Assembly (NCBI RefSeq): GCF_000020025.1
Contig: NC_010628.1
Span: forward strand, 2,850,001-2,882,000
Direction: 5' to 3'
From: Nostoc punctiforme PCC 73102
GTDB lineage: Bacteria > Cyanobacteriota > Cyanobacteriia > Cyanobacteriales > Nostocaceae
DNA length: 32,000 nt
In this document: in pieces, positions 1,014 through 32,000 of the stretch
Position numbering within the stretch: the stretch's first letter is position 1
Layout: each line of letters opens with the position of its first letter
Notes under the pieces: model-generated
The model's input: only the letters and a program-made list of their open reading frames with translations
Databases searched by the model: none
What the model was told of the DNA's origin: nothing
Made by a program: the position numbers and the translations under genes

Positions 1014-1208
1014 TTGAATTATTCACAAAAAAACTAAGTATGTTACGAAACGTAAATAAGCTTAAAACCTTTACTAATGACCAATGACATAGACGCTTCT
1101 GCGGCTACTCTTCGAGTTCTCCGAAGGAGTACCCGCAGGGTAGGACAAATGACAGCCTTAGCCAGTTAGCTTTAATTTCGCCGATCTACTTACCCATTAG
1201 TAGCGGAG

Positions 1209-2227: not shown

Positions 2228-2752
2228 TTATAACATCTTCTCAAGAATATCATCAGTCATCTGAATTTGGTTTTTTCCTATATTACGTTTCAGCAAAAAA
2301 ATACCCGCATCATGTGCTTGCTGACCACCGTCACTAAAGCAAGCATCCTCGATAATAACTGGTTCAATACCACGCTCAAAAGAGTCAATTGCTGTCTTAA
2401 AAAGACAGCTATCAGTTTCAACTCCACAAAGATATATTTTGCTGATTTGATTAAGAAAAATAAAAGCCGAAAAATTTTCTGTAAACGCAGAGTAATAATG
2501 TTTATCAAAAATATTATTTATATATGGTTGAAGTTCATCAATAATGCTAGTTTCGGGTTCATTTATCAACCTTGACCACTGAATTAGTTTGACATAATTG
2601 CTGTCAGTAGTATTGATAAATCTTGTGAATTCAACGAGTTTACCAGTCGCTAAAAAACGCTCAATTAATTTAATGACACTAGGAATAATATGTCTGCATT
2701 TCTCCGACATAAACCCGTTTTGCATATCTACTACAAGAAGTATTTCGCTCAT
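2228..2752 (-). CDS. isochorismatase-family cysteine hydrolase
   Basis: ATG at 2752 (the ORF track starts at a GTG at 2761). LLVVDMQNGF ... IYLCGVETDSCLFKTAIDSFERG matches the Asp/Lys/Cys catalytic context of the isochorismatase-like hydrolase family. The gene is visibly more AT-rich than its neighbours. Confidence 0.75.
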   Translation of the reverse strand: MSEILLVVDMQNGFMSEKCRHIIPSVIKLIERFLATGKLVEFTRFINTTDSNYVKLIQWSRLINEPETSIIDELQPYINNIFDKHYYSAFTENFSAFIFLNQISKIYLCGVETDSCLFKTAIDSFERGIEPVIIEDACFSDGGQQAHDAGIFLLKRNIGKNQIQMTDDILEKML

Positions 2753-2795
2753 GTGTGCCACAATTTATTTAGATTAAGAGCTACAACATTAAATA

Positions 2796-7850: not shown

Positions 7851-7865
7851 TTATTCTGGCTCCTA

Positions 7866-7900
7866 AATTCTGACTCCTGAATTCTGACTCCTGAATTCTT
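7866..7900. repeat. Right inverted heptamer-repeat arm flanking the four-helix-bundle cassette
   Basis: AATTCTGACTCCTGAATTCTGACTCCTGAATTCTT. The outer 17 nt (7884-7900) pair perfectly with 7472-7488. The inner heptamers are the same units in swapped order. Confidence 0.85.
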
Positions 7901-7914
7901 ACTTATCATCTGTG

Positions 7915-9174
7915 TTATACCCCTGATAACCCAGAATTTCTTTTCTCCGTTGTAACTATCCAACGGGGCCAAAATGGGTCATGTCCTGGTAAAACTCTTT
8001 GAAGTTCCTGATGAATTTGTGTTGATATTCTCAGATTTTCTGGAAACGTATTCATATCATCATCACGCATCCAAGCCTCTGCTGCTTCAATTGCGATTTC
8101 TGCTTCTTTGGAACGGGCTTGTTTGAGTCCAAAAATGTCTGAGGTTAACCATCCAACTATGTCCCCTTGTTTTGACCAAGGTACTTCGTCAAGGCTAACC
8201 TCGCTATCTTGTAATTTAAATAAAAATAGTTTATCTTCTTGCTCATGAAAATTTGGCTCTAAAGAAGCAAGAATAAGTGGAGAATGAGTAGTTACTAAAG
8301 CCTGTATCTTCATCCTGGGTTGTAATTCTGTCACCACAGATAAAATAGCTGGTAAAATCACCCTCTGCCAACGAGGATGCAAATGAGATTCAATTTCATC
8401 AATTAGTAAAACTATCTGATTTACTGGCTTTTGTTGCCGCAGTTCGGAAGCTTTTTTATGTTCGTACCAAGTCCACACTAGTAAATAAGCTAGTCCCAAA
8501 ATACGCTTCATTCCGGCTGAGGTTTGAGTAACAGGAACGTTACCGTAAGGTAGATTAACTGTAGGAATATCGCGCACGTCTTCAATAGAAACTCGTGTTG
8601 TTTCTCCCACTTCTATCCATTCGGAAGGGTGAGGTGCAAGTTTTTTAATAACATTAGAAAAGAGTTCAAATGGATATTTATTGGGTTGATTCTGCCATGT
8701 AACCCAATCTTGAATTAGACCATTACAAATAACTTTATCTTTTGACTTTAATCCATTCCAAAGTGTATTTGGATTAAAATTATAAGCAATATCGCGTTGG
8801 CGAGCAGGGTCAAAAATAGAAAAACTACCATCAACACGCACATAAATAACTACTTCTTTTAATAAAGGCGGCATTTGTAAATTACGCCATTGCTGTTCAG
8901 AAAAATCAAACTGGCTCTGATACTCTCTTATATTTTTTTTATTGCTAACTACGGCTGTAATTTGTGGATTTTCACCTTTGACTCGCTGTGGGTACGCTGG
9001 TTGCTCCGCCCAATTTGTAGTCATCACCCACCATGCAATATCGAGTAAAAAACTTTTACCTAAACCATTATCACCCGTAAATATATTGAGCCTATCAGCA
9101 AATGCGACATCAAAATGGGCAGCAGGACCAACTTGTTGGAGGTGAAGTTCTTTTAACATTTGGCTCTCATACAC
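7915..9174 (-). CDS. ABC/SMC-type AAA ATPase, PtuA-like (Septu-like pair)
   Basis: 419-aa ORF with Walker A FTGDNGLGKSFLLD, Walker B/D-loop VLLIDEIESHLHPRWQ and H-loop VTTHSPLILASL. Confidence 0.8.
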   Translation of the reverse strand: MYESQMLKELHLQQVGPAAHFDVAFADRLNIFTGDNGLGKSFLLDIAWWVMTTNWAEQPAYPQRVKGENPQITAVVSNKKNIREYQSQFDFSEQQWRNLQMPPLLKEVVIYVRVDGSFSIFDPARQRDIAYNFNPNTLWNGLKSKDKVICNGLIQDWVTWQNQPNKYPFELFSNVIKKLAPHPSEWIEVGETTRVSIEDVRDIPTVNLPYGNVPVTQTSAGMKRILGLAYLLVWTWYEHKKASELRQQKPVNQIVLLIDEIESHLHPRWQRVILPAILSVVTELQPRMKIQALVTTHSPLILASLEPNFHEQEDKLFLFKLQDSEVSLDEVPWSKQGDIVGWLTSDIFGLKQARSKEAEIAIEAAEAWMRDDDMNTFPENLRISTQIHQELQRVLPGHDPFWPRWIVTTEKRNSGLSGV

Positions 9175-13405: not shown

Positions 13406-14578
13406 CTATGAAGACATTAATTGAGCTTTGAGGGCGTGTGTCCCACGCGCCTTTATGTTTAAAGAAGCATTCAAATCTCTGCACAAGTTTGCATGACATA
13501 CAGGACAATTGTGCATTCTTTGAGATAGCGGCTTTTTAACTTTGTGACCACAACTAGAACATTCTTGACTTGTACTGTTTGGGTTGACAGCTATTACTTT
13601 TAAACCAGCATTTTCGGCTTTGTTTGAAAGTATTGAGATGAACTGTCCCCACCCTGAATCATTGATACTTTTAGCCAGCCATGTTTTAGCAAGTCCTTTG
13701 ATGTTCAACTTTTCAACTGCGACGACATCATACTTATCTAGTAGTGATTTAGCACTTTTGAAGTGAAAATCTTTGCGAGTATCAGCGACTTTTTTGTGCT
13801 GTTTACCCAATCTCTGAATAGCTTTCTTGCGTCTGTTGGAACCTTTTTTACGCCTTGATACTTTACGCTGTGCTGACTTTAATTTACGTTCAGATTTGCG
13901 TAGATATTTAGGCGCTTTGACTCTAGACCCGTCAGAAGCTACATAGAAATCAATCAAACCAACATCAATCCCGACAATATTATCAGGGCTAAAATCAGGT
14001 TTAATTGTTGGTACTGTTTTGTCATCAAGACTTAAAGTTACATAATAGCCATCTGACTTTTTGGTTACAGATACAGTTTTGATATCAAACCCGTCAGCTA
14101 TTGGGCGATGAACAATCACCTTGATATCCCCAATCTTTGAGAGCGTTATTCTGTTGTTGACAAAATGATGACCCTTAAATTGGGAATATGTAAATGTTTT
14201 ATATTGCCCTTTCCCTTTAAATCTAGGTCTACCAGATTTTTTGCCGTTAGCGTCACCTTTCAACCATCTATCAAAAGCTAATTCAACCTTCTTGGGAACT
14301 TCCTGTAGTACTTGAGAATGGATATTTTTGTACCAAGGACGGTCTTTTTTGAGTTGGGTTAATGATGTTTTTTGGTTGTAGTAATTGGGTTGCTCTTTTA
14401 ACTCTGGTAGGTGACAAATTAATGGGCATCTATCAATAGGACATCGGTTCATCTCATACCAATCGAACCTTTGAGCAAGCAGATAGTTATACTGATACCT
14501 CAGCATCTCAAGCGTTTTATCAATTTTCTCTGACTGCTCTTTTGTGGGTTTAATTTTATATTGGTATGAAATTCTCAT
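13406..14578 (-). CDS. tnpB: TnpB, IS200/IS605-family RNA-guided endonuclease (intact, 390 aa)
   Basis: RuvC-like residues are in context: IVGIDVGLIDFYV (D), VVAVEKLNIKGL (E) and CRDLNASLNI (D). The Zn finger is CSSCGHKVKKPLSQRMHNCPVCH. No Y1 tnpA lies next to it. Confidence 0.9.
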   Translation of the reverse strand: MRISYQYKIKPTKEQSEKIDKTLEMLRYQYNYLLAQRFDWYEMNRCPIDRCPLICHLPELKEQPNYYNQKTSLTQLKKDRPWYKNIHSQVLQEVPKKVELAFDRWLKGDANGKKSGRPRFKGKGQYKTFTYSQFKGHHFVNNRITLSKIGDIKVIVHRPIADGFDIKTVSVTKKSDGYYVTLSLDDKTVPTIKPDFSPDNIVGIDVGLIDFYVASDGSRVKAPKYLRKSERKLKSAQRKVSRRKKGSNRRKKAIQRLGKQHKKVADTRKDFHFKSAKSLLDKYDVVAVEKLNIKGLAKTWLAKSINDSGWGQFISILSNKAENAGLKVIAVNPNSTSQECSSCGHKVKKPLSQRMHNCPVCHANLCRDLNASLNIKARGTHALKAQLMSS

Positions 14579-15269: not shown

Positions 15270-16669
15270 TTAGCCGGACTGAATGTTAGGTTGAACTTCG
15301 CGCAACCGACGTTCCAGAAAACGACGCTCACTGTCATTTGTCACTAATTCTAGTGCCCGTGTATAGCTCTGGGTCGCTTCCTCTAATGCTCCAACACGCC
15401 GGAATAAATCTGCACGGGTGGCATGAAAGAGATGATAGCTGTCCAGTTCTGGAGCAAGGCTATCAATCAGTCCAAATGCGGCTTGAGGACTGTCTGCTAT
15501 TGCGATCGCCACTGCTCGGTTCAAGGTCACAATGGGTGAGGGCTGCAAGCGTTCCAACACCTCATAGAGCCGCACGATCTGCGCCCAGTCTGTTTCTTCG
15601 GCGCGGGTTGCCTGACAATGGAGGGTGGCGATCGCCGCTTGCAGGGCATACACTCCGGTTCCAAAGAGCAACGCTTCCTCTACCAGAGGTAACGCCCCAG
15701 CAATCTGTAGATGATTCCAACGACTGCGATCCCGATCTTCTTCTAGCAAAATCAAATCGCCTGCCTCATCTAGACGCGCATTGCGCCGCGAATCGTGCAA
15801 TAACATCAGCGCCACCAGTGCTGTGACTTCAGATGGGGGTTGGGGTGCCAGCAATTGCCGCACCAGTTGCCCCAAGCGAATCGCTTTGATGCAGAGGTCA
15901 GCCCGCACGATCGCATCTCCTTTGGTTGCGGCATAGCCTTCGTTGAAGATGAGATAGATGACTGTCAGGAATGCCTCTATCCGGGGAGCGAGATCAGTCG
16001 TCTCAGGTACTTTGTAAGGAATGCCTGCGTCTCGAATTTTGCGTTTAGCACGAACTAACCGCTGTGCCATTGTTGCAGTCGGTATAAGAAAGGCGCGGGC
16101 AATTTCGTCGGTTTCCAGTCCACCTAACATTCGGAGGGTCAACGCTACTTGAGTTTCCGTTGCCAGTGCCGGGTGACAGCAGGTAAAGATTAATCGCAGG
16201 CGATCATCTCCAATTTCATCACTGTCATAGGTTGCAATACTGCTCGGTTAAGGATTTTTAACTCGGAGTTGGGTTTGGGGAAAAGGTTAAAGGGTAAAGG
16301 TTAAAGGTTTTTTCTTTCCCCTTCTCCTTTTCCCCTTAACCGACAAGTATTGTCATAGGTTGGTTCTTCAGTGGATGGAATTAAGCCAGATGCCGCATAC
16401 CACTCTAGTTTTTCGGTCAGTTTCGTGCGTCGTCGGAGGCGATCGATCGCCTTGTACCGGGCAGTTCGGATAATCCAGGCACGGGGACGATCGGGAATAC
16501 CGTCGCTTTCCCACTGATTCACTGCCGCTGTAAATGCTGCCTGTGCAGCTTCTTCAGCTACATCAAAATCTCCGACCAGCCGAATCAGAATAGCGACAAT
16601 GCGCCCCCATTCAGTTCGATAAAGGGCAGCAATTGCTTGAGCCACATCTGTTTTTGGGATTGAAGCCAT
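15270..16669 (-). pseudogene. ECF-type sigma-70 family factor with long C-terminal extension, split by a MITE
   Basis: The N-terminal part (16351-16669) carries region 2 (PRAWIIRTARYKAIDRLRR). The C-terminal part (15270-16234) carries region 4 (ALTLRMLGGLETDEIARAFLIPTATMAQRLVRAKRKI) plus a TPR-like tail. Removing 128 nt (element plus one target copy) joins ...STEEPTYD to SDEIGDDRLRLIFTCCHPAL in frame, giving 423 aa. Confidence 0.8.
16235..16350. mobile_element. MITE-like insertion (about 116 bp) with terminal inverted repeats and target-site duplication
   Basis: The TIRs are CAATACTGCTCGGTTAAGG (left) and CCTTAACCGACAAGTATTG (right), matching 17/19. The direct repeat TGTCATAGGTTG occurs at 16223-16234 and 16351-16362. 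The exact TSD length (10-12 bp) is ambiguous because TG is shared with the TIR. The interior is G/A-rich versus C/T-rich and self-complementary (GGGGAAAAGG...CCTTTTCCCC). Confidence 0.75.
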
Positions 16670-19005: not shown

Positions 19006-19638
19006 ATGAAACTCTATGAATTTGCTCCCACACGATCAATTCGGGTTCGCTGGGTTCTTCAGGAACTTGGGGTGGAATTTGAAGCAATCTCCATCAACAT
19101 GCAGGCAGGTGAACACCGTACACCCGATTTTCTCACCATCAATCCCACTGGCAAGCTCCCTGTACTCATTGATGGCGAACATATCATCACTGAATCCGTA
19201 GCCATTGCTTTGTACCTCGGTGAGAAGTACCCAGAATCTAACCTGGTACCCACAGACTTGCTTCTGCGAGCACAGCTTTATCGTTGGCTTCTCTTTACTG
19301 CCACCGAATTGGAACAGCCGCTATGGCGTATCGCTCGCCACACGTTTATATACCCAGAAGAGTTGAGATTGCCTGCTGAAATACCTCTCGCTCGGCAAGA
19401 CTTCACCAGTATGGCTGTCGTTTTAGAGAACCATCTGTTGGATCGGCAGTTTGTACTGGGTGAACACGTCACAGTGGCTGATTTTGTGCTTGCTTACACA
19501 CTTGATTGAGCGAACGAAGTTCAGCTACTCGCCACTTTTCCCACGCTGGTAGACTACATGGAACAAATGTACAAACGACCAAAGGCATCTGGGCGAATCG
19601 CAGCTGCACTTGCAAGTCTCAATCAGACCTCACAATGA
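19006..19638 (+). pseudogene. Glutathione S-transferase with in-frame TGA at a conserved Trp position
   Basis: The N-domain reads MKLYEFAPTRSIRVRWVLQELG...KLPVLIDGEHIITESVAIALYL. The same frame continues through the TGA at 19507-19509: ...FVLAYTLD*ANEVQLLATFPTLVDYMEQMYKRPKA.... GSTs typically have D-W-A here, so the change is TGG to TGA. Confidence 0.8.
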
Positions 19639-19658
19639 TTCACAAAAGGAGATGTCTA

Positions 19659-19748
19659 ATGGAACCCAACCAAGCTGAACAAACCTCACCCATGCCTGCT
19701 CAACCGCAAAAAGAAAGAACATCAGTGGCTTCACAAACTCGTCGGTGA
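19659..19748 (+). pseudogene. Stub of a DUF1579-like gene (frameshifted and truncated)
   Basis: After a GGAG SD the frame reads MEPNQAEQTSPMPAQPQKE.... Shifting frame in the run CAAAAAGAAAGAA gives KEHQWLHKLVGD, the E-H-x-W-L-x-x-LVG-x-W opening of DUF1579-type proteins. Similarity is lost by about 19750. Confidence 0.3.
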
Positions 19749-20668: not shown

Positions 20669-20929
20669 TCACCCACAAAAATCATCCACCCGGATATCCC
20701 GCCAAATGTCAGAAATCTGCCAGCCAGAGTTGCCAACAGACTGTACTGGAGGATTGTCAAGGAATGGAATATAGTCAGGAACTCTAGCCACTGGAATTGC
20801 TGCTGGTTGCTCATCAACTACAGGGGCTGAGGAATTGACGGTATCAGCTTGAAGATTTTGGTCTTCAGTGTGTTGGATTTCCATCATTTTCTTCAGAGTC
20901 AGCTTGTCGGATTTTTTGATGATCTTCAT
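20669..20929 (-). CDS. Hypothetical protein (86 aa)
   Basis: ATG ORF between brxHI and the 213-aa ORF, on the same strand. No recognisable motif or SD. Confidence 0.35.
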   Translation of the reverse strand: MKIIKKSDKLTLKKMMEIQHTEDQNLQADTVNSSAPVVDEQPAAIPVARVPDYIPFLDNPPVQSVGNSGWQISDIWRDIRVDDFCG

Positions 20930-21336
20930 AATCTATCTTGTTAATGTTTTCATTCACTGCTCCCCAAAGGCATCGGCTGAAAATCTGGATGACAGCAAAG
21001 TTGGGAGAAATTGGGTGTTAATAATTGCACGGAATAAACAAGATACAGCAAATCTATGGAAAATACGAGTCTCTTGCTGAGGAATTTATCTTTTTCGATA
21101 CAAATTTCTTTTTCGTGCAGATGTCACAATATTTTACACAGATGTTTTGGGCACTCTTTAGCCTTATAGGAACCATTGATTCCCAAAATCAAACTGGAAA
21201 GGATTTTTTGCAGACAGGGAATTTTGATAACAAGCGTAGGTGATGATGAGCGCAACCCACAGTCTTTTAAACTTTGACTTGATTTTAGTTCAATCTAAGG
21301 TATCTCGCTCAAAGTGGCTTTGTTACTGAGATAAAA

Positions 21337-23477
21337 CTATTCAAGTTTATTTAAATTCAAAAATTTAATTACTCCTGGCATATCTAGCAAATAATTGCTA
21401 ACCATCTCTAGAGAATACGCTTCTAGCAACGCCCTCTGAAACTTACTTAGACGATATTCTGGTAATTGCGAAAGAATGAAGCGCTGGGTAGCTGAATTTT
21501 CCCAAAAGGCAGGAGTACTCATCTGAGCGATCGCTAAACTTAAAGTTGCATAACCAACACTATCGCCTTCAATTTTTAACTTGAAGTTGTCAGAGGTAAT
21601 CTTCCAATCATGGTGAAATTGCAGACCGTATTTGAGGGTGTGATTAATTTGTCCACCTGCGAAAGTCCACCACAGCGCCCGATCTGTTTCTAATTGGATG
21701 CTTGATTGAACTTCTGTTATTAATGGCCTGAGATCAGAACGGTACTCATCTAACACAACTTGCGTCTTAGCATCAATGTAAGGAATAGTACTTTCTGATT
21801 GCAATATTTCCGCAATTTGCTGACAAAGTTCAAAGCCTAGTAGCTGTGGGGCAAAGCCACCCCAGCTTGGTTTTTTACCACGGGGGGCTGGAACAACTCC
21901 AACTGTGCGTTCCTCATGGCTAACGTGCATGACTGTCCAAGCCCGACCGCCGAGAAGAAATGAACTCATCTGTGCAACTAATTTATCAACAAAAGCTTGC
22001 TCTAGAGAGCCTACAGTGTAACCTGCTGGTGTTTGAACTTTATAGAGAACTGGGCTACTAAAAACAGCGTAGAGTTCCATGAAGTTTTTACGCCCAAACA
22101 CTCGTTCTGCTTTTTCTCCCATTGACAGTAGCCCACCAGCTAGAAACAGGAAATCCTCCTGAATCATGTGTTTGATAAGTATTTCAAATTCTGAGTGGGT
22201 TATGCCTGAAAAATCAGGAACTACTGAAAGTTGCCCCCAGCAGAGTTCTGGGCTAATGCCACCAAATTGTAGGGTAAGTGCTAATAGCTGATGTACAAGT
22301 ACGGGCCATGCGCGTGTCTGAGTAGGTATAGATTCGACCCAGCCTTTCCTAGCTAGTTCAATGATGGCGATCGCTTGCAAAACTGTCTCTACATTTTCAC
22401 AGAAAAATGTAGTATTAGCTTGTTGCCCTGTTCTTCGTCCAGTGCGGCCCAAGCGCTGGAGGAAAGATGAGACAGTAGAAGGGGCATTAGCTTGCAATAC
22501 TAAATCGAGATCGCCAACATCGATACCCAACTCTAGAGTGGAGGTACAAATAATGCTGGCATTTGTCCCTCTATGAAAACGGTCTTCTGCGGCTGTTCGT
22601 TCTTCTAGGGAGACAGAACTATGGTGGACAAAGACATCTGTACCTCGGTTACGCATCCGTTCGGCAATTTCTTCAGCCAAAGACCGACTTTGGCAAAAAA
22701 ACAGGCTTTTCTTGCTCTGCGTTATCTGGCTGGCATCTTGAGCGATCGCGCCTAGCGTATCACGCAGATAAACGCGCAAATCCTTTTTCGAGGGAACTTT
22801 GGGCGGATTGACTACGCAACCTGGACGTTTTGATGTACCTTGGAGCCAATGCAAAATATCTACCGGATTACCAACGGTGGCACTAAGTCCAACGCGCTGC
22901 ACATCATTATTGGTGTAACGAACTAGCCGTTCCATAACGGACATGAGATGGGCACCTCGGTCTGTACCAGCTAGAGCATGAACTTCATCAATTATTAAAG
23001 CACGCATATCGCCAATATTAAAGCACGCATATCGCCAAAGATTTTTGTGTGGGGGACTTTGGCGGATAGCAGCATTACCTCTAATGACTCAGGAGTGGTC
23101 ATCAATAGTGCTGTCGGCTCTTTAATAAAGGCACGCTTTTCCTTATCTTTAATATCCCCATGCCAAAGAAAGCGCCTTAGACCTACCATTTCGGTGTAAT
23201 GCCCCAAACGTTCAGCTTGATTATTCAACAAAGCTTTAATTGGTGCAACATATATAAGTCCAACTCCTTCAGGTTCGCGTTCCATTAACGTTGCTAATAA
23301 TGGAAATATAGAAGCTTCCGTTTTGCCACCAGCTGTAGGGGCTAGAACAATTGCATTATTACCGTCGAGCAGTGTATGTCCTGCCAGTTCTTGGACAGGA
23401 CGCAGAGAAGACCACCCTAAGTTGGAGACAATAGCGGCTTGCAGACGGGGAGGAAAGCGAGCAAAGGCTGAAGTCAT
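21337..23477 (-). pseudogene. brxHI: BREX helicase BrxHI (Lhr-like DEAD/DEAH-box SF2 helicase) split by a 23-bp tandem duplication
   Basis: The N-terminal fragment (22995-23477) carries motif I VLAPTAGGKTEA. The C-terminal fragment (21337-23007) carries DEVH, GLSATVGN and QRLGRTGRR. Removing one repeat copy gives a continuous ...KIFGDMRALIIDEVHALAG... protein of about 705 aa. Its start lies 2 nt after the brxD stop. Confidence 0.85.
22993..23038. repeat. Perfect 23-bp tandem duplication
   Basis: TATTAAAGCACGCATATCGCCAA occurs at 22993-23015 and again at 23016-23038, 23/23 identical and directly adjacent. Confidence 0.95.
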
Positions 23478-23479
23478 GG

Positions 23480-24799
23480 CTAGAACTCCACGGCTGCGTA
23501 ACCTTGGATATCCGCAGGATCTTCGTCAAAATAAGTACGACCTTCACGGATGAGCAATTCTACTTCATTTAAATCTGTGGGTTCAAAACCTTCTGCGCTC
23601 ATCGGGTCAAATTCATCATTTTCTGATGCTAAATCAAGGATGTTGACAAACTGGCGCAGAAATTGTCGAGGAACTACTCCCACGTCTCCCTTAAAGCCAG
23701 CAGTAACTTTGGCAACTAGCCGTTCAATAAATTCGAAAGTGACTTTATTGACAATTCCAGTCCGATTGGCTGTGGGGAAAATTTCTCGCAATTTGAGTGC
23801 CACCTCTTTTAGACGGCGTGCATCAAAGGGTTTGAGTTCTAACTGGGGTTGGCGGGGGTTTGCAAAGCCAGCAAGAGTCAGAAATTGGATACGGTCATGC
23901 AGAGGTTCTAGTCCAGCAACTCCGCGTTTAGTATCAAAAAATTCAGGTGTCCCCGTATAAATCCATAACAATCCTCTGTAACGGTCGGCGGCATCACAGA
24001 TTTGGCGAATTCCATTTAAAGATTTACCTCGACTATCATGCCGCATTCGCAGTACTGTTTCTACTTCATCAATGACAATAACCAGTCCCTTGTAGCCTGC
24101 GGCTTTGACAATTTCGAGAATACCGTGCAGGTAGTCTAGGGCATCTCGGCTAGCAATATCTCCCTTAATGCCTGCGGCTTTTTTAGCGGTAGCAGCCACA
24201 TTTTCACTACCAGCTAGCCAAGAAAGCAAGGCGCTGGCTTCAGCAATTTCACCTTTCTGCTTAAAAGTAAAAATAGCACGGAGAACTCGTGCCATATCTT
24301 CTGGAGCTTTACCGCCCGTGAGAGAAGCAAGTTCTTCTTCTATGCGTTGCTGTACTAAAGTATCGAACTCGTCGCTGTTTTCATCTGCCCCGCCAGCAAT
24401 CAGTGCATCTTCCACACGCGCAATCCAGCGATCGATAATATCGCTTAAAGCACCTCTAGGACAAGAACTAGTTCCCAATTCCTGAACGACTTTGCGATAA
24501 ACATCATCGAATTTGTAAAAGTGCAAATCGTTATCAGAAACGACAACAAAACTGGTGGCAAAGCCTTGAGCTTGGGCATCAAGGATGGCCAGACGGGACA
24601 TAAAAGTTTTACCACAGCCGTAGCCACCGCGTAAAAACTTGAAGACACCTTCGCTATTAGCTGCTAGTTGGAATTGGCGATGAATTTCTGTTCGCTGTTT
24701 GTCAATACCGACAGCAAAGGCTTCTAACCCTCGTTCTGGAACAACACCGGAGCGAAGACGCTCAAAAATATGTTCAATATCTCGTTCACTGATTGCCAT
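23480..24799 (-). CDS. brxD: BREX ATP-binding protein BrxD (DUF2791-type P-loop ATPase)
   Basis: 439 aa with P-loop LRGGYGCGKTFMSRL and Walker B GLVIVIDEVETV. Its position between pglZ and the Lhr-like helicase matches BrxD in type 2/6 BREX. Confidence 0.85.
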   Translation of the reverse strand: MAISERDIEHIFERLRSGVVPERGLEAFAVGIDKQRTEIHRQFQLAANSEGVFKFLRGGYGCGKTFMSRLAILDAQAQGFATSFVVVSDNDLHFYKFDDVYRKVVQELGTSSCPRGALSDIIDRWIARVEDALIAGGADENSDEFDTLVQQRIEEELASLTGGKAPEDMARVLRAIFTFKQKGEIAEASALLSWLAGSENVAATAKKAAGIKGDIASRDALDYLHGILEIVKAAGYKGLVIVIDEVETVLRMRHDSRGKSLNGIRQICDAADRYRGLLWIYTGTPEFFDTKRGVAGLEPLHDRIQFLTLAGFANPRQPQLELKPFDARRLKEVALKLREIFPTANRTGIVNKVTFEFIERLVAKVTAGFKGDVGVVPRQFLRQFVNILDLASENDEFDPMSAEGFEPTDLNEVELLIREGRTYFDEDPADIQGYAAVEF

Positions 24800-24841
24800 A
24801 GTTGATTTTAATTAATACGTTTACTTTTATACATTAATCTG

Positions 24842-27694
24842 TTAATTTTGCTTGACATAGCGTTTACCATTACTGGTTGTTTCAATCCTGACTGAGAAAG
24901 GAACCTTCTTCAGGTGTTCCTCAAAATCTAAGGAGAAACGTCGCACCAGTCTGGCTGAACCAAGGATTTGGTTTAGTTCAGGTTCTGTAATCGAGCCGTG
25001 TTGCTGGAGGTGGAAGAACACACGCCGAACGGTTTCATCCTCGAAACTATCTTGCCAGTCAGTATTTTTGGGTAATTCGGTAGCGGTAGAAACCTCACCC
25101 TGGAATGAGCCAGAGACATTGAAATAAGTTTGAGGAACTATTGACTCTACATCTTCAACATTATCTGGGTGATAAATTTCCAGACGGACACGCTCATCTC
25201 GCTGTCCCTTGAGGTCAAAAAGCACCTCAATCCAATCTCCTTCGACGGCAATTTGGAGTTGCTGATTTTTGACTTCTGCACCAGGGGCATCCTTAATCGT
25301 AACTTGGATATCAGGTCGCTCTGGCACGCGCAAAGCGACATTAATTTCCCTGGCTCCCACAAAACTGAGAACGCCTTGGGCAACAGGCGCGGGCTTAACC
25401 CTAACCCGAATTCGGCTACAGTCTAAAATATTTGGCTCTGGTTTGGCTTCGATGAGATATTTCACCATTGCCAAATGAGACTGATGACGATGGGATACTG
25501 TTAGTACAGGAATAACTCGCTCTTGAAGGCTATTCCCACCATGTACAAAGGTAGCACCAGGATTGCCAGTGGCAAAAACAGCAGTATCTTTACGGAATAG
25601 TAAGTAACCTTCTTGTCCTTCATATTTGAGGGCATTTAAAGAAACTGTTACCATTCCTTCTTCGGAGCGAGATTCTTTGGCAAGGATATAACGGCGATTG
25701 GAGTCACGATAGGGTTTTTCTTGGGTGGTTTGGTCTTGTAGGAGAAATCCGTGGTCAGCAGTGAATATAAACTCATTTATACCAATACTTTTGAGGTGGT
25801 TCCAGGCTGACTTGATTTGTTGCAGCCAGGTTTCAAAGGTTGCTAAACCTACATTAGCTTCGCCTGCATCGTCAATTTCTCTACTGTGAACAACAACAAG
25901 ATTGGTATTAGCGCAGCTTTGTTTGAGGCTGGTGGTTGACCAATTGCAGACCTCTGCTAGAGTCAGACCCCGAACTTTTCTACGACCTGCACTGATATTA
26001 TCAATACTCTTCTCACTCATTGCCCGAACTCGTTCATCAGGCTTTCGCACAGTATACTCACCTGTTTTAAAACCTTTGAAACCATCACTACCCGCTAATA
26101 CTACCCGACCATTTTGGTTAACGGGGGCAAGGATGTTCATCCCGACAGCAGTGATGCTGGGTAATTCGGCATATCTCCCTTTCAACGTTACGGTAGTACC
26201 AGCCCCTTCAAATTCTTGGATAAGTTCTGTTGCCATTTCGTAGCGGAAGGCATCAATCAGAAAGTAAGCAACTTTTTTATTACCTTGGGTGAGGGGGTGT
26301 ACTACTTGCTCGTAGAGAGTGCGTTGCTGAAGCCCATCATCGGGTAAAAAGCTTTCTGTGGTGCAGATGACGGCAAAATCTTGTGCCAGGGTATCAGCCC
26401 AATTGCGATACTGAAAACGAAGTTTATCGGCAGCTTCTAGGAGTTGGGCGAAGTGGGGTAAGGTGGGTTCTAGGAGTTTTAACCTCTGCTGCTCAAAACG
26501 GCGATGTGCTTTGTCTACTTCAGAGCCAGTTTGTGTATAGTATTCTAAAGCTTCTCTGAGGGTTTGTTTGCCCTGAAGCTGCCCTGAACCTTGAATCATG
26601 TAACCCAAAGTGGCTGCATCTTTGATTAATGACCATTCTAATCTGCGAGTGCGATCGCGTTCTAGCCAAAATGAAGCAGACTCGGTGTGAGATTGTGACC
26701 AGTGTAAGGCTTTCTGAAATTCCCCAGTCAGCAGTGCTTCTACAGCACCCTGTAAAATGGCTGTTTCTTCCCACTGGAAGGTTTCAAATTGTCCTAAGTC
26801 TTCGGGGCTAATTTGATTAAGTTCTTGTTCTAGATGGGATTCTACAATTGCTGCTTTGGCTGCATAAATATCTGGATGGCGTTTTCGCAGATATTCAACA
26901 AGTTGCTTGCAGGTCTTTCGCAAGGGTAGAGAAAGTTGGGCCAGGGGTTGAAGTGCATCAAGATGAGGTGGGCGAGTGAGGTCATGGACATATTCAACGC
27001 ACATCAGCCAAGCAGCAAATGTTTCGCCCAGGTCGAGGAAAGATAGGGGTGTGTCGCCGTGAAAAAAGCACACAAAGGCTGTGTTCATCCCTGTGTGGCG
27101 GTAGAGATGTTCTGTTAAGGTGTTGAGAGCGGTTTGGTCGCTGATTCTCGATTGCAGTACTTTGTCTTCGCCCAGGATACCGTCTACAATCCACTCTAAA
27201 CTCAGACTTGTTAAATAAGCTGCTAGTCCGTCCTGGGGTTGGGAAAGGTTATTTTGCAGCCACTCCTCGGCAGATTGTAAGTCAGTGATGCCATTGTTAA
27301 GGTAGTTTTCGATACTAGCAGGGTTAACGTGGCCTGTAACTGCTTCCCGAATCAATGTGTCAAAGGCTTTGCGGAAACGGTAGCCGGCGCGGTAAAGTTC
27401 CAGAATAGGAGTTTTGCGGATAGTTTCTTCCGTATGACCGGGCATGTGAATTAACAACGGTTCGGGGTCAAGTCCATTGCCATAAGTTTCGAGGGCAAGT
27501 ACCATCTCTAAGTAACTGCCGCGAAAGGCAACGACTGGGGCAAAAAAGTCACCACGGTTATAGCGGGCGATTAACTCATCAACATAACTGTTGTAGTACC
27601 CGTCTTTATCTAGCCAAATAACGATACCGCGTTGACGCAGTTCTCGCTTCAGTTCTGCTTCTAAAACTGTGGTAATTGGACTTAATTGACTCAT
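24842..27694 (-). CDS. pglZ: BREX alkaline-phosphatase-superfamily protein PglZ
   Basis: 950 aa. The PglZ-domain core reads AYFLIDAFRYEMATEL ... SITAVGMNILAP ... FIFTADHGFLL. Its start overlaps the pglX stop (ATGA at 27691-27694), which suggests translational coupling. Confidence 0.9.
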   Translation of the reverse strand: MSQLSPITTVLEAELKRELRQRGIVIWLDKDGYYNSYVDELIARYNRGDFFAPVVAFRGSYLEMVLALETYGNGLDPEPLLIHMPGHTEETIRKTPILELYRAGYRFRKAFDTLIREAVTGHVNPASIENYLNNGITDLQSAEEWLQNNLSQPQDGLAAYLTSLSLEWIVDGILGEDKVLQSRISDQTALNTLTEHLYRHTGMNTAFVCFFHGDTPLSFLDLGETFAAWLMCVEYVHDLTRPPHLDALQPLAQLSLPLRKTCKQLVEYLRKRHPDIYAAKAAIVESHLEQELNQISPEDLGQFETFQWEETAILQGAVEALLTGEFQKALHWSQSHTESASFWLERDRTRRLEWSLIKDAATLGYMIQGSGQLQGKQTLREALEYYTQTGSEVDKAHRRFEQQRLKLLEPTLPHFAQLLEAADKLRFQYRNWADTLAQDFAVICTTESFLPDDGLQQRTLYEQVVHPLTQGNKKVAYFLIDAFRYEMATELIQEFEGAGTTVTLKGRYAELPSITAVGMNILAPVNQNGRVVLAGSDGFKGFKTGEYTVRKPDERVRAMSEKSIDNISAGRRKVRGLTLAEVCNWSTTSLKQSCANTNLVVVHSREIDDAGEANVGLATFETWLQQIKSAWNHLKSIGINEFIFTADHGFLLQDQTTQEKPYRDSNRRYILAKESRSEEGMVTVSLNALKYEGQEGYLLFRKDTAVFATGNPGATFVHGGNSLQERVIPVLTVSHRHQSHLAMVKYLIEAKPEPNILDCSRIRVRVKPAPVAQGVLSFVGAREINVALRVPERPDIQVTIKDAPGAEVKNQQLQIAVEGDWIEVLFDLKGQRDERVRLEIYHPDNVEDVESIVPQTYFNVSGSFQGEVSTATELPKNTDWQDSFEDETVRRVFFHLQQHGSITEPELNQILGSARLVRRFSLDFEEHLKKVPFSVRIETTSNGKRYVKQN

Positions 27695-30600
27695 GCGGCT
27701 TCCTCCTCTTCTTGCTCAAACAGAGGGCCGAAATCTTCTTCTTGGGTTTCTTCTTTTTTGCGTTTGCGTTCCCGTCGCTTCTCTTCTTTTTCGATAATTT
27801 CTTGCACTAGCTGAGGATTTTCTTTAGCAAAGGCTTGGCGCAGACTATCAGAATTTTGTTCATCAATAGTGAAATCCTCAGAAATTTCATCTTGCAAGCG
27901 CAGTTCCCACTCGTAAGCTTTAGCTGGGTGATATTTCCAAAAGCAACTGTGGGCAATAGCTAGGGAAGGATCTAGTTTGCATTTACCCTCAACCCGTTGG
28001 GGAAAATAACGGGCGGCTAAATGTGACCAGTCATAATCTTTTTTACCTTGGGCGTTGCAGAGTTCTAACCACCATTTTTTGGGTTGGTTCCACTGGGGTT
28101 CGAGTAAAGGCCAGAGGGCTGCACTATTGACCATCACACCGTCATCCAAAGCCATTTTGAAACGGGCATCAACTTCGCGCTTAATATCTTTTGCATTGGC
28201 TGGGGGTGGCCCTTGTTCCGCGCACTGTCTCACTAGGTTGATAAATGCTTTGAGTTCTTCGTGGAGTTTTTGTACTTCGCTGTAGTGTTCTTCAGCTTTT
28301 GCTTGTGTTTTTTTATCGCCTTGATGTCTGGCTGTGGTCAGGTCGTTGAGTTCGCCTTCTAGTTGGCTGAGTTCGGGGATGAGGTAATCTGCTAATAAAG
28401 TTTGCAATGTGTTATCAGCCCAGCGATGAATGCTGATAAAAGCAACAAAATTTTTCCGTTGGGATGAAAGGGGAAAGTAAATTGGGCGGCTTTCGTACAT
28501 TCCTAAGTGAACATCTTTAAAGAAGGATAACCGCAACCATTTGCGAAGTTGGGTTCCTTTGGCAATAATTGAACCGTACTCGTGCCAAGTTTCTTGGATG
28601 GGTTTACAGCTTGGGTGTTCTAAACTGTCTTTTTCAGAATAGGCGGAAAGATAAAGGATACCTTCGCCATTTGTGCCAAATCGCCCTAATGCTACGCCAA
28701 TAGCATAGGAAACGAAATTGGTTGGGAGTGGTTCTTCGTAGACAGGTTTGTAGTTTGGTAAAGGTGTGCCAGGTTCACGGTCTACTGCTGTTTGCGCCCA
28801 TTCTTGGGCATAGTTCCAAGCTGATGTACCTGGTTTTTTGAATTCTACTGAGGTTTCGCGAGCGGCTTCGTGTTCAGTGAAGGCTGTGTCAAGTTGGGCG
28901 AAGATTTCGTCTGCTGATTCGATGGGGAAAAGGGGAAGGCGTTTTGCATCTCCGACCTGAAAACTAATGCTAGGGTTTAATGCAATCAGTACATTACGGG
29001 CAATTTTAGAATTCATCAAACATACTGTGTTGCTTGTAATGTTTGGGAAAACTGATTGACCTTTTACATCAAACACACTTTTAAATCTATGAAATCTTGC
29101 TGCAAAAATACTACCTGTAGATGTGAATGCAACTCCTGCTCGGAAGTAATACTGTTCATTTTGAGGTCGTGAAGTTTGTTCTCCACCACGCTCCATTAAC
29201 TTTACAGCCAGTGCATTTGGTTCCCAAAGTAAAACATCTGTAAGTGGTTCAAACCAAACTTTACCAGCAGCACCCTTGATATAAGGAACCCATTTATTTC
29301 GAGGAAGGCTCAAAAGAGGAATATTTGTAGCACAAATTAAGAGTTCAGTAAGCTTAATTTCCCAAGGCTGTCGTAAAAAACGGGTATTATTGGCAGTTTG
29401 CATCCCTACTCTGACATCAGTTTCATCTCCCATTTTTGGTGTTTCAGCATAGCATTTGAGAAAATCTTTATCCCACCAATAAACAAGAGGTTTTTCTTTG
29501 ATAACCTCAAAGCGATTGCTCCAAAATTCAAAATGCCCAGCTTGTGATAAAAGTGTTGCCTGTTTCCGTTTTGTTCGCTTTCTATCATAAGAATTTTCAC
29601 CTAGCGGAGTTGCCTGCATTGCTATACTCATTTCTCCGCTAGGTAGCGTATTTAAGAATATGCTCATCATGACAGCAAGAACTTCTGAGTTTTGTACATC
29701 TTCAAAAGCGGCTGTATTTAAATCTCCTATCATTCGCAAATCAGAATTACCCAATAACCATTCTCGAATCTGCGTATATTGTTGAATAAACATCCAATTC
29801 CGCATTGTCAATAACGCAGACACACCCCCAGTTCTTGCTAATTGCAAACCCCGTTCCAAAAAAGCTGCATACAAATCCGCCTTTCCTTTAGGGTAATTCT
29901 TCGTAATATACCCAACATCCGCCATCTTACTCGTCCCCTGATACGGCGGATTGCCAATCACCAAATTATAGCTATTTTCACGTACAAGGCGGATAAATCT
30001 GATACCTGCTGCTAACTGCTCACCCCGCAACCGCAAGCCCAAATCATCGCCACTGGTACACCGCGAGAGAAATTGCTCAAGTTTATCGAGTAAAGAAGCT
30101 TTCGTCTGCTGAAAATTAAAGTCTGGTTTTTGCTCACCAAAGCCTGCAAAAATATTGCCTTGAATCACCTGTTGAAACTGACTTTCGTACTCGCTAATTG
30201 CTGTATCTACCGCAGTGTCTACCTTCAACAGTGTTCCTAAATAATCTGCCCCCTGCAAAGCATATACAATCTGATTTGTCAATTTTTCTGGAATTCCCGT
30301 CGCTTCCGTCACCTCTCGCCGCAACTCCACCAACGCCGGATCATCTGCTGGTAAAGAACCCAACTGAAGATTAGATGCAACCAAATTTAGATGTTTAGGA
30401 CTTGCTTGTGGAGAAAGTAGCCGCGCCTTCAGTATTAACGCTGCTGCCGCAATTTGTATTGCTCTGGGGTCAATATCAACACCATATAAATTGTTCTCTA
30501 GAATCGACTCAACAATTTGGCGATCGCTCCAATTTTCCCCCCGATGCCTTGCTTCTTCCTGGTAAAGTGTAAATAATAACCCAAAAGCAATTACTAGGAA

Positions 30601-31629
30601 ATGAGCCGAGCCAGTGGCAGGGTCTAAAATTTTGAGCGATCGCACACTCTCTGGTGCATGAGTGACTGCATCTGCGGTTAATGGTTGGGGAACCCAATAT
30701 TTCCAATTTTGTTCAATTCCCGGTTCAATTGGCATTAACGCATCTAACGCTACCTCTTTTTGTTCGCGCTTTTCTCGCCACTCTTTACGCCTTGCTTCCA
30801 AACGAGCTAAAGTTCCATCTGCCTCAACCTCAGCCGTCCAACCGTTCTTTTTGCACATCGCCAGCCACATCTGCCCCAAACTGTTATGGAGTAACCACTC
30901 CACCATGTAACGTTCTGTAAACATTTGGGTTTTGCTGGCAATTTCATGGGGTTCTACCTTCCCGCCCCCATTTAGTTTTGCATCTAGGGCTTCTCGTTCT
31001 GGGTCGTTCCAGTATTGATAAACCCACCCCAAAGTTGTATCATCCAGCCAAACATCCTTTAATTCAGCTGCATCCAAAGCCTCAATTGCTGCTCTCAAGG
31101 TACTGGCTGGAATTGGGAATAGTGCTGTCACTCCGACATTGCCAAACAAACCAGGCAATTCCTGAGCCAGTTCATCGTAGAGTAATTGCAGCAATGTTCC
31201 GTATCCCTCAGTTTCATCCTTGCACAAGTCCGGTGCAAAATCTCGAAACTCCCGATAACCCCGACTCTGCCAACCTCCGGTTAATACAGCAGGTTTAATT
31301 AATCCGTGTGCTTCCATCTGCTTAATTACTATCAGCCGATTGAGCAAGGTTGCAGCTGCGAGCTTGACTGCTGTTTTCAAATGGCGATCGCGTATTTCAT
31401 CTTCTTGTCTCTTACTTTTACCCTGACTACGGGATTGCTCATCCAGCCATTGTTCCAAGCGCTCTCGTTTCACCTGTTGCTCTTCTGCTAATCCCGCCTT
31501 ATTTAAGGTTTTAATTGATAATCGATAGGTGCTTTCTATCGCGTTTTGCAAATCAGTGAGCAAACGTTCTCTTAAAGCACGAATTGTATTTGATAATTTG
31601 GATTTAGCTTCAGGGGTGAGATAGGACAT
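27691..31629 (-). CDS. pglX: BREX N6-adenine DNA methyltransferase PglX
   Basis: 1312 aa. The SAM-binding motif I is [13 protein letters not shown] and the catalytic motif IV is VIGNPPYQG. The long N- and C-terminal extensions are typical of PglX. The tail is highly charged ([21 protein letters not shown]...EEEEAA). Confidence 0.9.
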
Positions 31630-31630
31630 T

Positions 31631-31728
31631 AGGAATAGGGAATGGAGAATAGGGAATTGGGGATTGGGGATTGGGGATTGGGAGTTGGGAGTTGGGAGTT
31701 GGGAGTTGGGAGTTAGGGATTGGGAGTT
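31631..31728. repeat. STRR-type array of 14 tandem heptamers
   Basis: AGGAATA GGGAATG GAGAATA GGGAATT (GGGGATT)x3 (GGGAGTT)x5 AGGGATT GGGAGTT. The array starts 1 nt upstream of the pglX start codon (31627-31629, minus strand). It fills most of the 132-nt spacer to the upstream gene. Confidence 0.9.
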
Positions 31729-31761
31729 GAGTATTTATGCTTCTTATTCCCCATGCCCCAT

Positions 31762-32000
31762 TTAAGATAAGCGAATGCGAGTATTGGGTTTGAGTTGAGC
31801 TAATAGCCGCTCTTTTAACTGGTTAACTAGTGCATTAATTTCTGCTTCTGTGCTGACTTCACGACCGCTAAGATTTAGCGGTAGCTGCACCACTTGATCT
31901 TCGGTGACTTCAGACAAGACATCATCAAGCCTGTTATTAGCAGTAGTCTCAGCCTTTTGAAGCTTAATTAGTGCTGAATCTTTGAGTTCTAACAAACTGG
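31762..32000 (-). CDS. 3' end of a gene running out of the window; by position probably brxC/pglY
   Basis: The frame is open from the window edge to the TAA at 31762-31764 (...[26 protein letters not shown]). The assignment rests only on the expected gene order upstream of pglX. No diagnostic motif lies inside the window. Confidence 0.4.

What the first reader, a model, noticed from the sequence alone, without database searches (positions are those of the whole stretch)
22993..23038. Perfect 23-bp tandem duplication switches off the BREX helicase next to its DEVH box
Seen directly:
- TATTAAAGCACGCATATCGCCAA is present twice, back to back, 23/23 identical.
- On the coding (minus) strand the upstream ORF reads ...KIFGDMRALI and then LAICVL-stop.
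- The downstream ORF begins MRALIIDEVHALAG.
- Deleting one copy restores ...KIFGDMRALIIDEVHALAG..., an uninterrupted SF2 helicase of about 705 aa with motifs I, II, III and VI intact.
- 23 nt is a +2 frame shift.
- Everything else in the visible operon (pglX, pglZ, brxD) is intact and tightly coupled.

Established: the Streptomyces coelicolor Pgl system (BREX type 2) phase-varies through a homopolymer tract in pglX.

Inference: a perfect tandem repeat can be lost again by one slippage or recombination event. This could therefore be a reversible ON/OFF or toxicity-escape switch rather than terminal decay.
Basis: partly seen in the sequence, partly recalled or inferred. Interest (0 to 1): 0.8.

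Follow-up and report, generated by a model that had tools for sequence, protein, structure and literature searches.

The report
Frameshifting 23-bp duplication in decaying BREX helicase
A perfect 23-base duplication really does break the helicase gene of a phage-defence (BREX type 6) operon in Nostoc punctiforme, but a second core gene of the operon is also broken, so this looks like ordinary gene decay rather than an on/off switch.

Summary
Window 22993-23038 holds two perfect, adjacent copies of a 23-mer. It splits a minus-strand brxHI helicase into a 160-aa ORF and a 556-aa ORF. Deleting one copy gives a 705-aa protein that matches BrxHI profiles end to end.

The window comes from the Nostoc punctiforme PCC 73102 / ATCC 29133 chromosome, and the operon is BREX type 6.

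The duplication is not an assembly artefact. The exact 160-aa truncation product is indexed in 81 blocks of public read-set assemblies, and all 10 contigs fetched carry exactly two copies. The repaired 705-aa protein is absent from about 15 billion proteins.

The switch interpretation is not supported:
- BrxC in the same strain is only 745 aa, against 1206-1207 aa in relatives. It lacks its P-loop half, and the break lies about 2 kb beyond the window.
- All 23 orthologues covering the site have one copy, so the site is not a recurrent hotspot.
- The locus carries different, independent lesions in many Nostocales relatives.
- The window holds at least two more disrupted genes.

Most likely this is a fixed, lineage-specific inactivating mutation in a decaying defence locus. 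It may have been selected as an escape from self-targeting. Minority one-copy alleles in raw reads could not be tested.

The parts
22993..23015 (.). Copy 1 of the 23-bp tandem duplication (TATTAAAGCACGCATATCGCCAA on the + strand). On the coding strand this is the second copy. It contains the ATG of the downstream ORF (23005-23007) and the premature TAA (22995-22997).
23016..23038 (.). Copy 2 of the 23-bp tandem duplication, 23/23 identical to copy 1. On the coding strand this is the first copy and encodes ...GDMRALI in the native frame.
22995..23477 (-). 5' fragment of brxHI: a 160-aa ORF (RefSeq WP_202947539.1) with helicase motifs I, Ia and Ib. It ends in 6 out-of-frame residues, LAICVL, then TAA.
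21337..23007 (-). 3' fragment of brxHI: a 556-aa ORF (RefSeq WP_202947538.1) starting at the duplicated Met. It carries motifs II (DEVH, 22978-22989), III and VI, plus the Lhr-type winged-helix and C-terminal domains.
23480..24799 (-). brxD (439 aa, ACC80909.1), intact. NCBIfam BREX_BrxD scores 522 bits against a cut-off of 350.
24842..27694 (-). pglZ (950 aa, ACC80910.1), intact. NCBIfam BREX_PglZ_6 scores 1064 bits against a cut-off of 400.
27691..31629 (-). pglX (1312 aa, ACC80911.1), intact. NCBIfam BREX_6_MTaseX scores 2180 bits against a cut-off of 900.
31628..31729 (.). Heptamer (STRR-type) array, 14.6 copies. It fills the brxC-pglX spacer and runs into the pglX start codon. Its length is hypervariable among relatives.
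31762..32000 (-). 3' end of brxC. The whole ORF is only 745 aa (WP_052304589.1) and covers BrxC profile positions 451-1172 of 1173. The homology break lies at virtual window coordinate ~34035-34055, outside the window.

Best explanation
This is a lineage-specific loss-of-function mutation. A spontaneous 23-bp tandem duplication (+2 frame) arose inside RecA-like domain 1 of the BrxHI helicase of a BREX type 6 operon in Nostoc punctiforme PCC 73102.

Its effect on the protein: translation from the native start runs through motifs I, Ia and Ib, reads 6 wrong residues and stops. The rest of the gene (motifs II-VI, winged helix, C-terminal domain) could only be made by re-initiation at the duplicated ATG, and that product would lack the ATP-binding P-loop. 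The helicase is therefore inactive.

The allele is fixed at consensus level in the strain as held by laboratories. It sits in a defence locus that is already non-functional or decaying, because BrxC has lost its P-loop half.

Shown: the duplication, the two ORFs, the restored full-length match, the BrxC truncation, the fixation in public assemblies, and the decay of the locus in relatives.

Inferred: that the two fragments do not reconstitute activity. Also inferred: that the knockout was neutral after BREX was lost, or was positively selected to stop the BrxD/BrxHI effector module acting on unmethylated self DNA once the BrxC-dependent methylation module failed.
For: Anatomy of the lesion:
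- Perfect 2.0-copy repeat and the ORF anatomy.
- The Pfam DEAD domain spans residues 26-197 of the repaired protein without interruption, so the break at residue 154/155 lies inside the domain.
- The repaired protein is a full-length BrxHI.

Source and fixation:
- The source is the N. punctiforme 8,234,322-bp chromosome, and RefSeq already carries the two fragments as separate proteins.
- The 160-aa product is indexed in 81 blocks of Logan assemblies. The 10 contigs fetched, from runs in the SRR6394275, SRR8435145-64, SRR16479520-27, SRR21010785 and SRR24693403 series, are 99.99-100% identical across the operon and carry exactly 2 copies.
- The exact 1-copy 705-aa protein is not in the collection.

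Second lesion in the same system:
- BrxC is 745 aa, against 1206-1207 aa in 12 listed relatives.
- It covers only profile positions 451-1172 of 1173 and scores 281.7 bits, below the 400-bit cut-off.
- BrxC homology starts at nt ~19-21 of contig L041, with an in-frame TAG at nt 6-8 and unrelated sequence upstream.
- In E. coli BREX, brxC deletion abolishes both modification and protection, while deletion of the effector brxL abolishes protection only (PMC6326788).

Comparative evidence:
- All 23 orthologues covering the site have one copy.
- Independent lesions in relatives: brxHI frameshift (L018), brxHI and pglX deletions (L036), remnants (L037, L038, L040), pglZ deletion (L014), pglX/pglZ/brxD loss (L015), and pglX deletions (L017, L024, L026, L034).
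- There are further disrupted genes in the same window: a GST with an in-frame TGA and a sigma factor split by a MITE-like insert.
- Nonsynonymous change in brxD is raised on the N. punctiforme branch: 4N/9S against 1N/34S, Fisher p = 0.015.
Against: - Both brxHI halves are otherwise clean. They have no further stops or frameshifts, and the terminal-branch N/S of 7/13 is not different from relatives (p = 0.27). The lesion is therefore young, or the halves are still constrained.
- pglX, pglZ and brxD are intact.
- The downstream ORF begins with an ATG created by the duplication and overlaps the upstream stop by 13 nt, so both fragments could be translated.
- Minority 1-copy alleles in raw reads were not testable here. 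All public runs may descend from one laboratory stock.
- What lies upstream of the brxC break, and whether a second BrxC exists elsewhere in the genome, could not be seen.
Confidence: 0.8

Rival explanations
1. Reversible ON/OFF (phase-variation) switch. The population flips between 2-copy (OFF) and 1-copy (ON) alleles by slippage or recombination between the two 23-mers, tuning BREX defence or its cost.
For: - A perfect tandem duplication is intrinsically revertible.
- Pneumococcal capsule genes switch in exactly this way (PMC4243769 citing Waite 2001 and 2003).
- One-copy restoration gives a flawless full-length BrxHI.
- Neither half carries a secondary lesion.
Against: - BrxC lacks its ATPase half, so an ON state of the system is not expected.
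- 10 of 10 contigs from at least 5 run series carry 2 copies, and the 1-copy protein is absent from about 15 billion sequences.
- No orthologue shows a duplication here.
- There are only two copies and no SSR tract. No homopolymer longer than 7 and no short-unit repeat of 4 or more copies occurs in the operon.
- Relatives lose the locus by assorted irreversible lesions.
Confidence: 0.07
2. Functional split gene. The two overlapping ORFs are both translated by coupling at the ATG/TAA overlap, and the fragments reassemble into an active two-piece helicase.
For: - A 13-nt ORF overlap with an ATG start for the second ORF.
- Both ORFs are annotated as proteins in RefSeq.
- No extra lesions in either half.
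Against: - The split cuts RecA-like domain 1 directly before the Walker B/DEVH strand, separating the P-loop from motif II.
- The arrangement is unique to one strain. Every complete orthologue is a single 699-717-aa protein.
- No split version is conserved.
Confidence: 0.05
3. Assembly or sequencing artefact of the reference genome.
For: Short perfect duplications can arise from mis-joins in older Sanger assemblies.
Against: The same 2-copy sequence was assembled independently from many later read sets (81 index blocks; 10 of 10 fetched contigs).
Confidence: 0.01
4. Programmed ribosomal frameshift. It would read through the duplication to give a helicase with an 8-residue insertion.
For: A -1 shift inside the second copy would restore the frame.
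Against: - There is no X_XXY_YYZ slippery heptamer in the zero frame before the TAA.
- A +1 slip at CUU-UAA runs into UGA after two codons (sequence inspection).
- No relative has such an arrangement.
Confidence: 0.01

Closest known systems
BREX type 6 (BREX-6). Expected gene order, from my recollection of Goldfarb et al. 2015: brxE-brxA-brxB-brxC-pglX-pglZ-brxD-brxHI. PMC12839542 now treats it as a subtype of type 1 in which BrxL is replaced by a helicase.
   Same: - PglX and PglZ hit the BREX-6-specific NCBIfam models far above their cut-offs, and BrxD hits its equivalog.
- Gene order brxC-pglX-pglZ-brxD-brxHI is identical to the annotated intact operon on Aulosira laxa NIES-50 plasmid 3.
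- BrxD and BrxHI form an adjacent pair, as described for this dyad (PMC12839542).
   Different: Two of the genes seen are broken here: brxHI by the 23-bp duplication, and brxC by loss of about 450 N-terminal codons. The upstream genes corresponding to brxB, brxA and brxE could not be inspected.
Phase variation by spontaneous intragenic sequence duplication in Streptococcus pneumoniae capsule genes cap3A, cap8E and tts (Waite et al. 2001, 2003; cited in PMC4243769)
   Same: A perfect tandem duplication of tens of bp inside an ORF causes a frameshift and loss of function. Precise loss of one copy would restore the gene.
   Different: In pneumococcus both states coexist and interconvert measurably, and many different duplications recur in the same gene. 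Here only one state is seen in all public assemblies, no relative has a duplication, and the rest of the system is already broken.
Streptomyces coelicolor Pgl (BREX type 2), with phase variation through a G-tract in pglX.
   Same: It is a BREX-family defence system whose activity can be lost by a frameshift in one component.
   Different: Different BREX type, different gene (methyltransferase rather than helicase) and different mechanism (homopolymer slippage). No homopolymer longer than 7 nt occurs in this operon.
Mutated StySA BREX of the Salmonella laboratory strain LB5000 (bioRxiv 10.1101/2021.11.15.468586)
   Same: A BREX locus in a widely used laboratory lineage is inactivated by mutations in more than one component, including brxC, while the methyltransferase gene stays intact.
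   Different: Those are point-mutation clusters in a type 1 system obtained by deliberate mutagenesis or selection. Here the lesions are a tandem duplication and a 5' truncation of unknown origin.

Membership tests
BREX type 6 system | BREX-6-type PglZ phosphatase | tested here: met
   NF033443 BREX_PglZ_6 scores 1063.9 bits (cut-off 400), residues 8-949 against profile 2-954 of 958. RefSeq name is 'BREX-6 system phosphatase PglZ'.
BREX type 6 system | BREX-6-type PglX adenine methyltransferase | tested here: met
   NF033455 BREX_6_MTaseX scores 2180.5 bits (cut-off 900), near full length. RefSeq name.
BREX type 6 system | BrxD ATPase adjacent to the helicase | tested here: met
   NF033438 scores 522 bits (cut-off 350). 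There is a 2-nt gap to brxHI.
BREX type 6 system | Intact BrxHI (Lhr/Ski2-like SF2 helicase of about 700 aa) | tested here: not met
   It is encoded as 160-aa and 556-aa ORFs. Only the in-silico repaired 705-aa sequence matches PADLOC BrxHI end to end.
BREX type 6 system | Intact BrxC P-loop ATPase (about 1200 aa) | tested here: not met
   The ORF is 745 aa, covers profile positions 451-1172 of 1173 and scores 281.7 bits, below the 400 cut-off. Relatives are 1206-1207 aa. The homology break is shown.
BREX type 6 system | Upstream brxE, brxA and brxB genes | not testable with these tools
   They lie beyond the window and beyond the longest retrievable contig (L041).
Phase-variable locus by reversible tandem duplication (pneumococcal cap3A type) | Perfect intragenic tandem duplication causing a frameshift | tested here: met
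Phase-variable locus by reversible tandem duplication (pneumococcal cap3A type) | Both allelic states are found among cultures or sequencing runs of the same strain | tested here: not met
   At consensus level, 10 of 10 contigs carry 2 copies and the product is indexed in 81 blocks. The exact 1-copy protein is absent. Minority alleles within reads are not testable with these tools.
Phase-variable locus by reversible tandem duplication (pneumococcal cap3A type) | Recurrent, independent duplications in the same gene across isolates or relatives | tested here: not met
   23 of 23 orthologues have a single copy at the site. Lesions in relatives are deletions and a frameshift elsewhere in the gene.
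Phase-variable locus by reversible tandem duplication (pneumococcal cap3A type) | Reversion restores a working system, so the switch has a phenotype | tested here: not met
   The ORF would be restored, but BrxC lacks its ATPase half. brxC is essential in type 1 BREX (PMC6326788). The phenotype itself was not measured.
Simple-sequence contingency locus (as in the S. coelicolor pglX G-tract) | Homopolymer or short-unit repeat tract of many copies inside the coding sequence | tested here: not met
   The longest homopolymer in 21337-31629 is 7 nt, and no 2-7-nt unit repeats 4 or more times.

The most novel reading that the evidence does not exclude
The duplication is a selected, still-revertible escape from BREX autoimmunity. 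On this reading, once BrxC (and with it self-methylation) was lost, the BrxD/BrxHI effector module became harmful and was silenced by a mutation that leaves every codon intact. In polyploid Nostoc filaments, a low-frequency 1-copy allele could then persist and be re-selected. That would make intragenic tandem duplication a soft, reversible way of parking a defence effector.
Probability: 0.1. Interest if true: 0.5.

Novelty: new member of a known kind. Interest (0 to 1): 0.15.

Why it matters
The practical value is modest. It shows that the BREX-6 system of the model symbiotic cyanobacterium N. punctiforme PCC 73102 carries at least two lesions, in brxHI and brxC. The system should therefore not be counted as an active defence system in defence-island surveys, or treated as a barrier in genetic work.

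It also documents how often this cassette decays in Nostocales. In some relatives the cassette is plasmid-borne.

If raw reads did reveal a 1-copy subpopulation, the locus would be an easy test case for reversible duplication-based silencing of a defence effector. The BrxC truncation makes a functional switch unlikely.

Tried and rejected
- **Microhomology at the junctions:** looked for it as a slippage signature and found none. Only weak 8-13-nt inverted repeats lie nearby. The origin of the duplication stays unexplained.
- **Metagenome scan:** used a pattern accepting a 0- to 23-nt gap to catch both 1-copy and 2-copy alleles. The single hit was a 1-copy allele in a 94%-identical relative. 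This says nothing about N. punctiforme.
- **Sequence upstream of the brxC break:**
  - pglZ and pglX look-ups returned only Logan contigs that stop at the same point.
  - The 18 unrelated nucleotides at the break have no match in the window.
  - A protein search with the N-terminal 450 aa of Aulosira BrxC found no N. punctiforme fragment.
  - The best unnamed hit, P0153, came from an unrelated sample, ERR10900024.
- **First BrxC cluster look-up:** failed because I left Leu instead of Met at the TTG start. It was repeated correctly.
- **L001:** it first looked like a second strain sharing the duplication (98.8% identity). In fact it is 100% identical through the operon and diverges only beyond a dispersed repeat at about 21015. 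It is not evidence for an old allele.
- **Programmed frameshifting:** considered and rejected from the sequence.
- **Literature:** no paper combines 'Nostoc punctiforme' with BREX, and no N. punctiforme methylome paper was found.
- **Not attempted:** structure prediction, because the domain-level position of the break was already clear from Pfam.
Full report
**1. The observation**

Window 22993-23038 contains TATTAAAGCACGCATATCGCCAA twice, head to tail and 23/23 identical (TRF period 23, 2.0 copies, 100% matches; string comparison).

- The bases on either side do not extend the repeat, so it is exactly two copies with no junction microhomology.
- About 4.5e-10 such events are expected by chance in 32 kb.
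- On the minus strand, a 160-aa ORF (22995-23477) ends ...KIFGDMRALILAICVL*. A 556-aa ORF (21337-23007) starts MRALIIDEVHALAG. The two overlap by 13 nt.
- Deleting one copy gives a 705-aa ORF. It has an uninterrupted Pfam DEAD domain (residues 26-197), Helicase_C and the Lhr winged helix. It matches PADLOC BrxHI end to end (1.5e-276).
- Motifs I, Ia and Ib lie in the first fragment. Motifs II (DEVH), III and VI lie in the second.

**2. Where the window comes from and what the operon is**

The two fragments are RefSeq proteins WP_202947539.1 and WP_202947538.1 of Nostoc punctiforme. BrxD is ACC80909.1, PglZ is ACC80910.1 and PglX is ACC80911.1. All are on the 8,234,322-bp chromosome of strain PCC 73102 / ATCC 29133.

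NCBIfam places PglZ and PglX in the BREX-6-specific models, far above their cut-offs, and BrxD in its equivalog. The gene order brxC-pglX-pglZ-brxD-brxHI is the same as in the fully annotated operon on plasmid 3 of Aulosira laxa NIES-50. There the proteins are 1206, 1327, 950, 439 and 703 aa, preceded by three small genes.

The system is therefore BREX type 6. A recent survey treats this type as a type-1 subtype in which BrxL is replaced by a helicase, with BrxD and BrxHI as a tightly linked pair (PMC12839542).

**3. It is not an artefact, and it is fixed at consensus level**

- The exact 160-aa truncation product, which can exist only with the duplication, is indexed in 81 blocks of Logan assemblies of public sequencing runs.
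- The 10 contigs fetched come from at least five separate accession series: SRR6394275, SRR8435145-64, SRR16479520-27, SRR21010785 and SRR24693403.
- All 10 carry exactly two copies and are 99.99-100% identical to the window through the operon.
- The exact 1-copy 705-aa protein is not present among about 15 billion proteins.
- One contig, L001, at first looked like a diverged strain. It differs only beyond a dispersed repeat that starts near 21015, where several other contigs also end. It is not evidence for an old allele.
- A metagenome scan designed to catch both alleles found only a 94%-identical relative with one copy.
- Minority alleles inside raw reads cannot be examined with the tools available.

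**4. A second lesion in the same system**

The longest contig, L041, extends 2 kb beyond the window.

- Homology to BrxC begins abruptly there, at residue ~451 of the Aulosira protein. An in-frame TAG lies 13 nt upstream. The first 18 nt are unrelated to the brxC sequence of N. favosum at that position.
- RefSeq annotates exactly this 745-aa ORF as 'hypothetical protein' WP_052304589.1, while the full-length members listed in its 90% cluster are 1201-1207 aa and mostly named BrxC.
- The fragment covers only BrxC profile positions 451-1172 of 1173 and scores 281.7 bits, below the 400-bit cut-off. The P-loop half is therefore missing.
- In E. coli type-1 BREX, deleting brxC abolishes both methylation and protection. 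Deleting the effector brxL abolishes protection only (PMC6326788).
- By analogy (inference), N. punctiforme BREX-6 cannot be turned on by repairing brxHI alone.
- I could not see what replaced the 5' half of brxC.

**5. Relatives**

Thirty loci from species-representative genomes encode relatives.

- All 23 that cover the site have a single copy of the 23-mer. The reconstructed N. punctiforme single-copy sequence is identical to two of them across the 23-mer. The site is not a recurrent duplication hotspot, and the duplication is specific to the N. punctiforme lineage.
- The nearest orthologues are about 97% identical at the nucleotide level.
- The cassette decays often and in many different ways:
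  - a brxHI frameshift with loss of the upstream genes (Nostoc sp. WHI);
  - a brxHI internal deletion together with a pglX deletion (N. favosum; NCBI lists a 365-aa product);
  - bare remnants (L037, L038, L040);
  - a pglZ internal deletion (L014);
  - loss of pglZ and most of brxD (L015);
  - pglX deletions (L017, L024, L026, L034).
- Five close relatives appear intact (L011, L012, L013, L016, L032). In Tolypothrix/Aulosira and Anabaenopsis the cassette is on plasmids; the one checked (Aulosira laxa plasmid 3) is typed conjugative.

**6. Age of the lesion**

Neither brxHI half has further stops or frameshifts.

- Codon changes unique to the N. punctiforme branch are 7 nonsynonymous and 13 synonymous. 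This is not different from relatives (23/76 pooled, p = 0.27).
- brxD shows 4/9 against 1/34 (p = 0.015), a weak hint of relaxed constraint.
- The duplication is therefore probably recent relative to the ~3% divergence from relatives. That fits either a young pseudogene or a parked allele.

**7. Mechanism**

Shown: the +2 frameshift truncates the helicase after motif Ib. It leaves the remainder accessible only from an internal ATG, without the P-loop.

Inferred:
- The two pieces do not reconstitute a helicase, because the cut lies inside RecA-like domain 1, directly before the Walker B strand.
- The knockout was either neutral, because BREX was already dead through brxC, or favoured, because an effector module without self-methylation is dangerous. 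BREX components show toxin-antitoxin-like dependencies, and brxL alone is toxic (PMC6326788).

The order of the two lesions is unknown.

Reversion by loss of one copy is physically possible. Pneumococcal capsule genes use exactly this route for phase variation (PMC4243769). None of the population-level hallmarks of such a switch is seen here.

I found no slippery site for programmed frameshifting. No simple-sequence tracts occur in the operon.

**8. Context**

The same 32-kb window holds other damaged genes:
- a glutathione S-transferase with an in-frame TGA;
- an ECF-type sigma factor split by a ~125-bp MITE-like insert;
- a TnpB gene.

The brxC-pglX spacer is a heptamer array that runs into the pglX ATG. 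It varies from none to about 45 repeats among relatives.

**9. Verdict**

The feature is real and was correctly read. It is best explained as an ordinary, lineage-specific inactivating duplication in a defence locus that is already broken elsewhere. Interest is low. The remaining open point is whether raw reads hide a 1-copy subpopulation.

Noticed in passing
window 31628-31729 (and L011-L014, L032, L036 brxC-pglX spacers): A heptamer (STRR-type) array, CTCCCAA/TCCCCAA/TTCCCAA on the coding strand, fills the brxC-pglX spacer and runs directly into the pglX ATG. Among relatives the spacer ranges from about 30 nt with no array (Tolypothrix/Aulosira plasmid) to about 360 nt. It is hypervariable in copy number and sits immediately upstream of the methyltransferase start. 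Its effect on expression is unknown.
   Followed up: partly
virtual window coordinate ~34035-34055 (L041:1-21), outside the window: brxC of the same operon is truncated to 745 aa and has lost the P-loop half. Relatives have 1206-1207 aa. What replaced the 5' half could not be retrieved.
   Followed up: partly
window 19006-19748 (+): A glutathione S-transferase gene has an in-frame TGA at 19507-19509 (..FVLAYTLD*ANEVQLL..), and the GST C-terminal domain continues in the same frame. It is a likely nonsense pseudogene.
   Followed up: partly
window 15270-16669 (-): An ECF-type sigma factor is split. Sigma70_r2 is in 16301-16669, and Sigma70_r4_2 plus DUF6596 are in 15270-16142. The interruption is a ~125-bp MITE-like insert with 19-nt terminal inverted repeats (CAATACTTGTCGGTTAAGG / CCTTAACCGAGCAGTATTG) and internal heptamer repeats at 16278-16309.
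   Followed up: partly
window ~20675-21018; L001:5200-5540: A dispersed repeat lies downstream of brxHI. Five Logan contigs end at 21015-21018, and contig L001 continues through a roughly 80-85%-identical copy into unrelated DNA encoding 1318-aa (Helicase_C) and 1061-aa proteins. This could be a mis-path in assembly or a rearranged substrain.
   Followed up: no
window 13406-14578 (-) and 7915-9174 (-): There is a TnpB / IS605 OrfB-type gene (OrfB_IS605 plus the Cas12f1-like TNB domain). There is also an AAA_21/AAA_15 (AbiEii/OLD-like) ATPase next to a 14-nt x 3.6 tandem repeat at 7853-7903. The neighbourhood looks like a mobile or defence-rich region.
   Followed up: no
L044 (Logan ERR10900024), 672-3841: An unrelated cyanobacterial sample has a brxC cut short at 685 aa, followed by two short ORFs, one with a faint UPF0236 hit. 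This is another apparently shortened brxC.
   Followed up: no
L011-L017, L032, L036 pglX against the other BREX genes: Among close Nostoc relatives, PglX is only 81-91% identical with many gaps, while BrxC, PglZ, BrxD and BrxHI are 92-99% identical. One possible reading is swapping or diversification of the methyltransferase's target-recognition region.
   Followed up: no
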